From IMG/VR virus record IMGVR_UViG_3300032242_000550, positions 32,001 to 96,000 of that record: a stretch of DNA of 64,000 nucleotides; one strand, 5' to 3'. The translations under genes and the position numbers were made by a program. Source of the DNA: a virus. The notes beneath the pieces are model-generated. The model was not told the DNA's origin. It searched no databases and saw nothing but the letters and a program-made list of their open reading frames with translations. This document shows, piece after piece, positions 53,566 through 53,704 of the stretch; the stretch's first letter is position 1; every line of letters starts with the position of its first letter.

Positions 53566-53616
53566 ATATGATAGATATATAATACATAGTAAAATACAAT
53601 ACTTAACCGTAAAAGA

Positions 53617-53659
53617 TAAGAACGAACGTAGTGAGTTCTTAGATGAACGAAGTTCATCT
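53617..53659 (+). other. Two adjacent GNA-triloop hairpins (ssDNA-type structure)
   Basis: TAAGAAC-GA-AC-GTA-GT-GA-GTTCTTA and AGATGAAC-GAA-GTTCATCT. Confidence 0.6.
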
Positions 53660-53704
53660 TTACATAGAAAACCCGTATTGATAAATGAACAGTTACGGGA
53701 ATTA

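What the first reader, a model, noticed from the sequence alone, without database searches (positions are those of the whole stretch)
53566..53660. Tandem GNA-triloop DNA hairpins after an AT-rich tract: possible origin or priming signal coupled to the ncRNA
Seen: after a very AT-rich tract (~53566-53605) come two abutting hairpins, TAAGAAC-GA-AC[GTA]GT-GA-GTTCTTA and AGATGAAC[GAA]GTTCATCT. Established: C-GNA-G triloops and tandem sheared G.A pairs are unusually stable in single-stranded DNA rather than RNA, and occur in single-strand initiation sites and N4 virion RNAP promoters. Inference: promoter, structured RNA, unwinding element and ssDNA hairpins in series resemble an R-loop-primed origin (T4 origins are transcript-primed), here next to gp46/gp47/resolvase genes. 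AAAGATA recurs at 53251, 53482 and 53612.
Basis: partly seen in the sequence, partly recalled or inferred. Interest (0 to 1): 0.72.

Follow-up and report, generated by a model that had tools for sequence, protein, structure and literature searches.

The report
Conserved hairpin tail of phage RNA
The two abutting hairpins are real and are among the best-kept pieces of a roughly 450-base structured non-coding RNA locus found once per genome in a large family of uncultured giant T4-like lake phages. They most likely form the RNA's 3' tail rather than a DNA replication-start signal, although that idea is not excluded.

Summary
HP1 (53617-53641, with tandem GA/GA mismatches and a C-GTA-G cap) and HP2 (53641-59, with a C-GAA-G cap) follow an 85% A+T tract. 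Each hairpin is unique in the 155-kb contig. HP2 occurs once in each of five complete 349-525 kb relatives.

In 53 distinct relatives, 98% of stem cells pair and 13 of 16 pairs show compensatory changes. The GA..GA dinucleotides and the G..A loop ends are invariant.

The hairpins sit 50 nt downstream of a roughly 350-nt pseudoknotted RNA core (53213-53566). That core is read from the + strand (G.U 414 against A.C 48) and matches no Rfam family. This scan had already found the RNA on other phage DNA.

The purine mismatches only make structural sense on the + strand, which is the RNA strand. My best reading (0.5) is that the hairpins form the 3' tail of this RNA: a stacked, protein-recognised end-protecting module and at most a weak terminator.

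The origin reading is not supported by GC skew or by the T4 origin architecture. It is not refuted either. The caps fit the DNA mini-hairpin consensus GCGNAGC/GCGNNAGC, and wobble pairs are oddly rare in these stems. No RNA-seq could be obtained.

The parts
53201..53212 (+). Promoter-like TATAAT followed by a conserved A-tract (ATAAAAATT), just upstream of the RNA 5' end. Its role as a promoter is inferred.
   Evidence: Sequence. The ATAAAAATT block is at least 90% conserved in 64 relatives. It differs from the phage's late promoter motif (A/C)TAAATA, seen upstream of 11 genes.
53213..53566 (+). Core of a large pseudoknotted non-coding RNA. It is closed by pairing of its 5' end (GUU 53214-16) with CGG 53561-63.
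   Evidence: RNAalifold gives 72 pairs, 48 of them with compensatory changes. The + strand scores -158.5 against -136.8 for the - strand, and G.U 414 against A.C 48. There is no Rfam match even at E up to 10. It is conserved at 70-94% identity in more than 100 viral contigs.
53567..53616 (+). It carries a semi-conserved UAACCGUAAAA just before HP1.
   Evidence: 85% A+T here. In relatives the linker is 26-68 nt, with mean A+T 75% and A 45%. No consecutive covarying pairs link it to the core.
53617..53641 (+). HP1: a 6-7 bp stem, a tandem G.A/A.G internal loop, a 2-bp stem and a G-N(-N)-A cap.
   Evidence: All 9 pairs show double changes. GA..GA and the loop G and A are invariant in 53 sequences. 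The module is unique in the contig. Some lineages have a longer version with a second GA/GA module.
53641..53662 (+). HP2: a 7-8 bp stem with a C-GAA-G cap, abutting HP1, followed by a conserved U-Y-U.
   Evidence: The lower stem GAUG/CAUC is invariant and the upper 3 bp covary; no pair is broken in 53 sequences. The loops start with G and end with A in most of the 150-odd unique relatives in which a hairpin was found. The tail is T 93%, T/C 92%, T 90%, then A-rich. There is one copy per complete genome.
53671..53699 (-). Context only: HP3, the likely terminator of the convergent gp26/gp51-like late operon (CCCGUA..UACGGG followed by UUUUCU on the - strand). Its loop is conserved.
   Evidence: Fold of the - strand. 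Conservation of GATAAATGAAYAGTTACGG across relatives. The stop of the - strand ORF is at 53705.

Best explanation
HP1 and HP2 are RNA hairpins. They form the 3' tail of a single + strand transcript that starts near 53213, folds into the roughly 350-nt pseudoknotted core, continues through a flexible A-rich linker and ends at or just after HP2 (about 53660).

HP2 is a 7-8 bp stem whose lower half and U-Y-U tail never change. It defines and shields the 3' end against 3' exonucleases, and it may pause or weakly stop RNA polymerase just before the convergent late operon.

HP1 abuts HP2. Tandem sheared G.A pairs and a G..A cap make it rigid. Together with the invariant base of HP2, it acts as a recognition knob for a conserved phage or host protein.

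What is shown: the structure, the strand specificity, the strict coupling to the RNA and the single copy per genome. What is inferred: that the tail is transcribed with the core, that it marks the 3' end, and that a protein binds it.
For: - Both stems covary.
- The invariant GA..GA gives stabilising sheared purine pairs only on the + strand. The complement would carry U.C/C.U mismatches.
- The + strand is independently the RNA strand of the core: G.U 414 against A.C 48, and alifold -158.5 against -136.8.
- The tail accompanies the RNA in all 64 aligned relatives and in 159 of 175 unique metagenome tails by a crude search.
- In the divergent lineage L141 the middle of the RNA is different, yet the 5' module and HP1+HP2 are kept. 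There the next feature, 12 nt after HP2, is a late promoter (CTAAATAC) and a gene on the same strand, so the tail ends a transcription unit.
- The linker is A-rich on the + strand (A 45-52%, T about 32%). That is a strand-asymmetric property expected of an unpaired RNA tether.
- RNA folding predicts exactly HP1 with its 2-bp cap plus HP2, in both the MFE and the centroid structure.
- HP2 occurs once per complete genome, like the RNA gene.
- An earlier follow-up on another genome also described the RNA as about 355 bases plus a hairpin tail (e1-5690309). This is a lead, not evidence.
Against: - I have no transcript data.
- HP2 is a poor intrinsic terminator. It is A+U-rich with only three pyrimidines after it. 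The phage's capsid gene ends with a canonical GGGCACC..GGUGCCC hairpin plus U6.
- Wobble pairs are nearly absent from the tail stems: 1 one-sided against 48 two-sided changes. The core helices show 183 against 772. That fits DNA pairing, or very strong selection.
- The caps follow the DNA mini-hairpin rule GCG(N)NAGC, including non-GNRA tetraloops such as GAUA, GCUA and GUUA. The RNA versions of such mini-hairpins are reported to be much less stable than the DNA versions (PMC13037366).
- No base pairing between tail and core was detected.
- The tail is better conserved than much of the core, which a mere end-protecting hairpin would not require.
Confidence: 0.5

Rival explanations
1. Single-stranded DNA signal of a transcript-primed origin. 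Transcription of the RNA leaves an R-loop in the A+T-rich tract. The displaced + strand then folds into two very stable mini-hairpins that resist SSB coating and recruit a primase or helicase loader, as at the G4 origin, RSF1010 ssiA or the ColE1 pas sites.
For: - The HP1 caps in relatives are GCGAAGC, GCGTAGC, GCGATAGC, GCGGTAGC and GCGACAGC. This is exactly the DNA mini-hairpin consensus, which is far more stable as DNA than as RNA and occurs at ssDNA initiation sites.
- The C-G closing pair is kept even when loops change.
- Wobble pairs are almost absent from these stems although they are common in the RNA core.
- The displaced strand of an R-loop made by the + sense RNA is the + strand, which matches the strand specificity.
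- The element is single-copy per genome.
- It sits next to recombination and replication genes (gp46, gp47, a PDDEXK nuclease).
- In T4, oriE lies near the gene 5 region and uses an early promoter.
Against: - The GC-skew turning points are 6 kb away in this contig and at least 35 kb away in a complete relative.
- T4 oriF and oriG need only a promoter with the unwinding element directly downstream. They need no specific sequence and have no hairpins. Here a 350-nt closed, pseudoknotted RNA intervenes.
- No iterons and no partner signal on the other strand were seen.
- The linker is A-rich rather than symmetric A+T.
- A few relatives have U.G closing pairs (GACU-GAA-GGUC, GGCU-GAA-GGCC), plain loops (UU, AAA, UUUA), or an HP1 without GA/GA.
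- No helicase loader or DnaB-type helicase was found in the 155-kb fragment, but the fragment is only 45% of the genome, so this says nothing.
Confidence: 0.12
2. Plain transcription terminators between convergent units, with no further role. HP2 stops the + strand RNA. HP1, followed on the - strand by UUUUUACGG, backs up HP3 in stopping the late gp26/gp51 transcript.
For: - The hairpins lie between the + strand RNA and the - strand late operon.
- On the - strand, HP1 is followed by a conserved run of five U (the complement of ACCGTAAAAA).
- On the + strand, HP2 is followed by U-Y-U.
- In L141 the module precedes a new promoter.
Against: - Terminators normally drift in sequence. Here the exact 19-mer is kept in at least 119 contigs whose flanking protein is only 70-95% identical.
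- The GA..GA and the lower HP2 stem are invariant.
- The stems are A+T-rich with short U runs, unlike the phage's canonical capsid-gene terminator.
- The simple terminator scan flags neither hairpin.
- The - strand already has its own hairpin plus U-run, HP3.
- The - strand form of HP1 has an 11-nt loop with pyrimidine mismatches and is weak.
Confidence: 0.15
3. Double-stranded DNA palindromes bound by a dimeric protein, such as an operator, a homing-endonuclease site or a recombination site.
For: Both elements are inverted repeats sharing GAAC/GTTC. The outer half-sites of HP2 (AGATG/CATCT) are invariant. GIY-YIG endonuclease genes lie nearby.
Against: The two arms change together so as to keep intra-strand pairing: 48 double changes and almost no single ones. 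Half-site recognition does not predict this. The conserved centre of HP1 (GA-NN-GNA-NN-GA) is not palindromic.
Confidence: 0.04
4. A separate small RNA of about 70 nt, started from a sigma-70-like promoter inside the A+T tract (TTCAAA, 18 nt, TATAAT; 53554-53583) and consisting of HP1 and HP2.
For: The promoter scan gives a 10 of 12 match. A -10-like hexamer at the right spacing is somewhat enriched in relatives: 22% with at least 5 of 6, against 9% in shuffles.
Against: The enrichment comes mainly from close relatives, and many distant ones have no such hexamer. The -35 lies inside the conserved 3' strand region of the core, so its conservation is already explained by the RNA fold.
Confidence: 0.05

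Closest known systems
Extraordinarily stable DNA mini-hairpins, d(GCGNAGC) and d(GCGNNAGC), at the phage G4/St-1/alpha3 complementary-strand origins, RSF1010 ssiA and N4 early promoters (review PMC13037366)
   Same: The cap of HP1 (and less strictly of HP2) is a C-G closed loop that starts with G and ends with A, with 1-2 free bases between. Several relatives carry the literal GCGAAGC or GCGATAGC.
   Different: Those elements act in genomes or stages that are demonstrably single-stranded. Here the DNA is a double-stranded jumbo-phage genome. The hairpins sit behind a structured RNA gene on its sense strand. The window's own cap is ACGTAGT, with a weak A-T second pair. No primase or virion RNA polymerase link was found.
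T4 oriF/oriG R-loop origins (review PMC3016281)
   Same: A promoter-driven non-coding transcript and an A+T-rich tract, in a T4-like phage, near recombination genes.
   Different: T4 origins are about 100 bp: a promoter with the unwinding element directly downstream, no required sequence and no hairpins. Here a 350-nt folded RNA separates them, and the conserved parts are the hairpins.
ColE1 RNA II primer with downstream primosome assembly sites (from my own knowledge, not checked here)
   Same: The same order of parts: a long structured RNA, then an initiation zone, then hairpins on the displaced strand.
   Different: No RNase H-type processing site, antisense RNA I or PriA system has been shown. 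The comparison is only an analogy.
Rho-independent terminators and 3' protective hairpins of stable RNAs
   Same: The position at the end of a transcription unit, a stem-loop followed by pyrimidines, and protection of the 3' end.
   Different: The sequence is invariant over a whole phage family, the GA/GA motif is invariant, and the U-run is very short. The phage's own clear terminator looks different.
Protein- or polymerase-binding tandem RNA hairpins: lambda/P22 boxB (GNRA-like G..A penta-loops) and HK022 put (two abutting stem-loops) (from my own knowledge)
   Same: Short stems with G..A loops of 3-5 nt (GACAA occurs in one relative). Two hairpins separated by 0-3 nt.
   Different: Those elements act at the start of operons to prevent termination. 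This one is at the end of a non-coding unit, with nothing downstream to read into.
ROOL and GOLLD large ornate RNAs of phages and prophages (Rfam)
   Same: A large, intricately folded, phage-borne RNA of unknown function, of which this tail is a part.
   Different: No sequence or structure match: cmscan found nothing at E up to 10.

Membership tests
DNA mini-hairpin (GCGNAGC / GCGNNAGC) single-strand initiation signal | A C-G closing pair with a G...A sheared loop of 3-4 nt | tested here: met
   HP1 cap: the C-G closing pair is present in 52 of 53 sequences, and the loop G and A are invariant. HP2 loops are mostly GAA, with GTA, GCA, GGA, GCTA, GTTA and GTAA also seen, plus a minority of other loops.
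DNA mini-hairpin (GCGNAGC / GCGNNAGC) single-strand initiation signal | A G-C second pair (the full GCG..AGC) | tested here: inconclusive
   The window and 45 of 53 relatives have A-U/T at this position (ACGAAGT); 8 have G-C.
DNA mini-hairpin (GCGNAGC / GCGNNAGC) single-strand initiation signal | The element is exposed as single-stranded DNA and recognised by a primase or polymerase | not testable with these tools
   This needs R-loop or ssDNA mapping or binding assays.
T4-type R-loop replication origin | A promoter with an A+T-rich unwinding element directly downstream, within about 100 bp | tested here: not met
   The conserved promoter-like site is at 53201-12. The A+T tract begins at 53567, after 350 nt of folded RNA. 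The promoter-like site inside the tract is not conserved.
T4-type R-loop replication origin | Location at a switch of transcription direction and of compositional skew | tested here: not met
   The skew minimum is at about 47-48 kb of the window, 6 kb away. In a complete relative the locus at 293 kb lies between turning points at about 193 kb and about 330 kb. This is a weak test, because T4-like phages need not show replication skew.
T4-type R-loop replication origin | Replication starts here in infected cells | not testable with these tools
   No cultured relative was found: there were no significant phage-collection matches.
Intrinsic (Rho-independent) terminator | A G+C-rich stem followed by a run of at least 5 U | tested here: not met
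   HP2 has 3 G-C pairs of 8 and is followed by U-Y-U-A. It is not flagged by the scan. The capsid-gene terminator of the same phage is canonical.
Structured RNA helix (part of the ncRNA transcript) | Compensatory base changes that keep the pairs | tested here: met
   13 of 16 pairs have double changes, 98.2% of cells are paired, and slid controls give 23-44%.
Structured RNA helix (part of the ncRNA transcript) | Strand asymmetry (G.U tolerated, A.C not) on the RNA strand | tested here: inconclusive
   This is clear for the core (414 against 48). The tail stems have almost no wobble pairs at all. Their strand is assigned from the GA/GA mismatches instead.
Structured RNA helix (part of the ncRNA transcript) | Covered by the same transcript as the core | not tested
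An earlier agent's note that the RNA is transcribed in lakes (e1-5368496) was not checked here.
Any Rfam 15 family | A covariance-model match | tested here: not met
   No hit at the gathering threshold in the window. Only chance-level hits at E up to 10 on 53100-53800 and on the L141 homologue.

The most novel reading that the evidence does not exclude
The ornate RNA is a structured primer, working like ColE1 RNA II, for the single specialised replication origin of these jumbo phages. HP1 and HP2 act as DNA: ultra-stable mini-hairpins on the displaced strand that exclude SSB and load the primase or helicase. This would be the first defined origin of this kind in a T4-like or jumbo phage.
Probability: 0.12. 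Interest if true: 0.85.

Novelty: new variant of a known kind. Interest (0 to 1): 0.5.

Why it matters
The tail is among the best-conserved parts of an undescribed large RNA. That RNA is kept once per genome by hundreds of uncultured freshwater giant phages, and by at least one marine (TARA) scaffold.

Knowing whether the tail works as RNA or as single-stranded DNA would point to the RNA's function. As RNA it could be an end-protecting or protein-binding handle. As DNA it could be a priming signal.

Because HP2 and the GA/GA knob are invariant and short, they make a ready-made bait for pulling down the partner protein. They are also a compact signature for finding the locus in metagenomes: the exact 19-mer alone recovered at least 119 contigs.

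Tried and rejected
- Known RNA family: none found. No tRNA or tmRNA.
- Cultured relatives: no DNA match in the phage collection for the locus or the tail (all E at least 2).
I scanned metagenome contigs hoping for transcript-sized records with shared ends, but all 120 returned were 1.2 kb or longer.
- General terminator type: rejected, because HP2 and HP1 are unique in the contig and single-copy in complete genomes.
- Internal promoter in the A+T tract: not conserved.
- AAAGATA as an iteron: rejected. Only the 53482 copy is conserved, and it pairs with the 53352-58 loop.
- Tail-core tertiary pairing: a mutual-information scan gave only isolated columns.
- Packaging site: in the relative bounded by terminal repeats, the locus is 71 kb from the nearer end.
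- Replication genes in the contig: gp59 and DnaB-type helicase were not found, but the contig is 45% complete and the gp59 control also failed, so this is uninformative.
- Coding potential: the listed small ORFs across the gap are not supported. The gap shows compensatory changes that preserve RNA helices, and there is no long conserved frame.

Full report
**Setting.**
The window is part of a 155-kb IMG/VR contig, about 45% of a jumbo T4-like phage genome with about 35% G+C. The finding lies in the only long gene-free gap of the neighbourhood, 53201-53704.

- Upstream on the + strand are gp55-like sigma, GIY-YIG endonucleases, gp47/gp46 (SbcCD-like) and a PDDEXK resolvase-like gene ending at 53200.
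- Downstream, converging on the - strand, are a gp26-like baseplate hub gene (53929-54753) and a small -1 frame ORF ending at 53705.

**The observation.**
HP1 (53617-53641) and HP2 (53641-53659) are as described, except that they share A53641. The preceding tract 53566-53605 is 85% A+T, in the top 0.5% of 40-nt windows.

Folding energies alone are only about 2.6 sd better than shuffles, whether the sequence is treated as RNA or DNA and on either strand. Perfect 7-bp triloop hairpins are not rare in this A+T-rich contig. The significance comes from comparison with relatives.

**Conservation and covariation.**
- The resolvase-like protein recovered 80 related viral loci at 69-96% identity.
- The exact HP2 19-mer recovered at least 119 viral contigs.
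- The whole 500-nt gap aligns at 70-94% identity.
- In 53 distinct tails, 98.2% of stem cells pair, 13 of 16 pairs show changes on both sides, no shuffle reaches this, and slid controls pair at 23-44%.
- The two GA dinucleotides flanking the inner 2-bp stem of HP1 are invariant, as are the first G and last A of its loop. The middle loop base varies freely.
- In HP2 the lower stem GAUG/CAUC never changes, while the three upper pairs covary.
- Among about 150 further unique tails from viral and metagenome contigs in which a hairpin was found, HP2 loops are mostly GAA. GTA, GCA, GGA, GCTA, GTTA, GTAA, GTCAA and GACAA also occur, with a minority of unrelated loops (TT, AAA, TTC).
- Some lineages have a longer HP1 with a second GA/GA module about one helical turn below the first. 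One lineage replaced HP1 by a plain 8-bp hairpin.
- HP1 and HP2 are each unique in the 155-kb contig. HP2 occurs once in each of five complete 349-525 kb relatives.

**What the hairpins are attached to.**
The gap upstream (53213-53566) is a large structured RNA.

- RNAalifold on 64 sequences gives 72 pairs, 48 with compensatory changes. These include a closing stem between 53214-16 and 53561-63 and a multi-helix junction.
- Reading alignment A1 shows two covarying pseudoknot-type pairings:
  - GUCCC (53417-21) with GGGGA (53474-78); the variant is CUCC/GGAG.
  - The loop UUAUCUUU (53352-58 region) with AAAGAUAA (53482-88 region); the variants are UUAUUUCU/AGAAAUAA, UUGUCU/AGACAA and UCACUU/AAGUGA.
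- The + strand is the RNA strand: alifold gives -158.5 against -136.8, and G.U cells number 414 against 48 A.C.
- No Rfam family matches.
- Earlier follow-ups of this scan found the same RNA on other phage DNA and also called it new (e1-5368496, e1-5368487, e1-5690309). I did not rely on them.

**Which strand and which molecule for the tail?**
The invariant GA..GA forms tandem sheared purine pairs in the Py-GA-Pu context only on the + strand. The complement would hold pyrimidine mismatches and an 11-nt loop. So the functional single strand is the + strand, the same sense as the RNA.

That fits an RNA tail.

Points favouring RNA:
- The tail is coupled strictly to the RNA.
- The linker is A-rich on one strand.
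- The RNA nearest-neighbour model predicts the exact HP1/HP2 fold.
- A few relatives have U.G closing pairs.
- In the divergent L141 lineage the RNA's middle differs, but its 5' module is kept (hairpin plus CACC..GGUG, covarying with CUCC..GGAG here) and so are HP1+HP2. HP2 there is followed 12 nt later by a late promoter and a co-directional gene (late motif). The tail therefore behaves as the end of a transcription unit.

Points favouring DNA:
- The caps obey the published DNA mini-hairpin consensus. That consensus is far more stable as DNA and occurs at G4, ssiA and N4 sites.
- Non-GNRA tetraloops are accepted.
- One-sided (wobble) changes are almost absent from the tail stems, 1 against 48 two-sided. 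In the core the figures are 183 against 772.

**Tests of the origin idea.**
- The cumulative GC skew of the contig turns at about 47-48 kb, at the divergent gene switch, not at 53.6 kb.
- In a complete relative of 364 kb bounded by terminal repeats, the locus at 293 kb lies between turning points at about 193 and about 330 kb.
- T4's defined R-loop origins consist of a promoter and an immediately downstream A+T-rich unwinding element, with no sequence requirement and no hairpins. That architecture is not met here.
- These are weak negatives, since T4-like replication need not leave a skew signal.
- The promoter-like site inside the tract is not conserved.

**Tests of the plain-terminator idea.**
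HP2 is followed by a conserved U-Y-U and then an A-rich stretch. The capsid gene of this phage ends with a textbook G+C-rich hairpin plus U6. The terminator scan flags neither hairpin. Sequence invariance across a family whose proteins have diverged to 70% identity is not what terminators show. The - strand operon has its own hairpin and U-run, HP3.

**Verdict.**
The hairpins are a genuine, strongly selected, strand-specific module.

- I put about 0.5 on their being the RNA's 3' tail: 3'-end definition and protection plus a protein-recognition knob.
- I put about 0.15 on their being terminators only.
- I put about 0.12 on the ssDNA origin or priming signal.
- Small probabilities go to a duplex DNA site or a separate small RNA.

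The decisive data are strand-specific 3'-end mapping and replication-start mapping, neither of which I could obtain.

Noticed in passing
window 53705-53945 (- strand): The gp26-like hub gene ends GAT TTT TTC GGT TAA. The -1 frame opens exactly at the T TTT TTC heptamer and runs 74 codons to 53705, with no start codon before the M at 53827. This looks like a programmed -1 frameshift giving a long form. Other readers and agents of this scan have noted it too.
   Followed up: partly
window 53671-53699: The hairpin after the - strand stop codon has a nearly invariant loop, GATAAATGAAYAGTTA (+ strand sense). The loop resembles the phage's late promoter motif (A/C)TAAATA, and it also opens a conserved 7-8 codon micro-ORF (MNSYG..) that ends at the shared TAG. 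Why a terminator loop should be so conserved is unexplained.
   Followed up: partly
L141:10848-11246 (IMGVR_UViG_3300042197_004335; same sequence in L143): A G+C-richer T4-like phage has, in the same gp46-to-hub slot, an RNA with the same 5' module and the same HP1+HP2 tail but an apparently unrelated middle of about 300 nt. This suggests conserved end modules around an exchangeable core.
   Followed up: partly
window 53352-53358 with 53482-53488, and 53417-53421 with 53474-53478: Two covarying long-range pairings (pseudoknots) inside the RNA core. They were seen by reading alignment A1 and were not predicted by RNAalifold.
   Followed up: partly
window 53233-53241: An invariant ACCUCCUUGA follows the first hairpin of the RNA and resembles the 3' end of 16S rRNA. 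In the consensus fold its CUCC pairs with GGAG at 53270-73 and covaries (CACC/GGUG in L141), so it is probably a helix rather than a free anti-Shine-Dalgarno mimic.
   Followed up: partly
window 63800-63830: A canonical intrinsic terminator (GGGCACC-TA-GGTGCCC followed by TTTTTT) lies after the major capsid gene. It is useful as this phage's reference terminator.
   Followed up: no
window 17963-35785 (- strand): A single open reading frame of 5940 codons.
   Followed up: no
L172 tail (IMG/VR relative): In one relative the HP2 loop is exactly inverted (GAAC-TTC-GTTC instead of GAAC-GAA-GTTC). This is the footprint of a hairpin-centred inversion, and it shows that the GAA loop orientation is dispensable in at least one lineage.
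   Followed up: no
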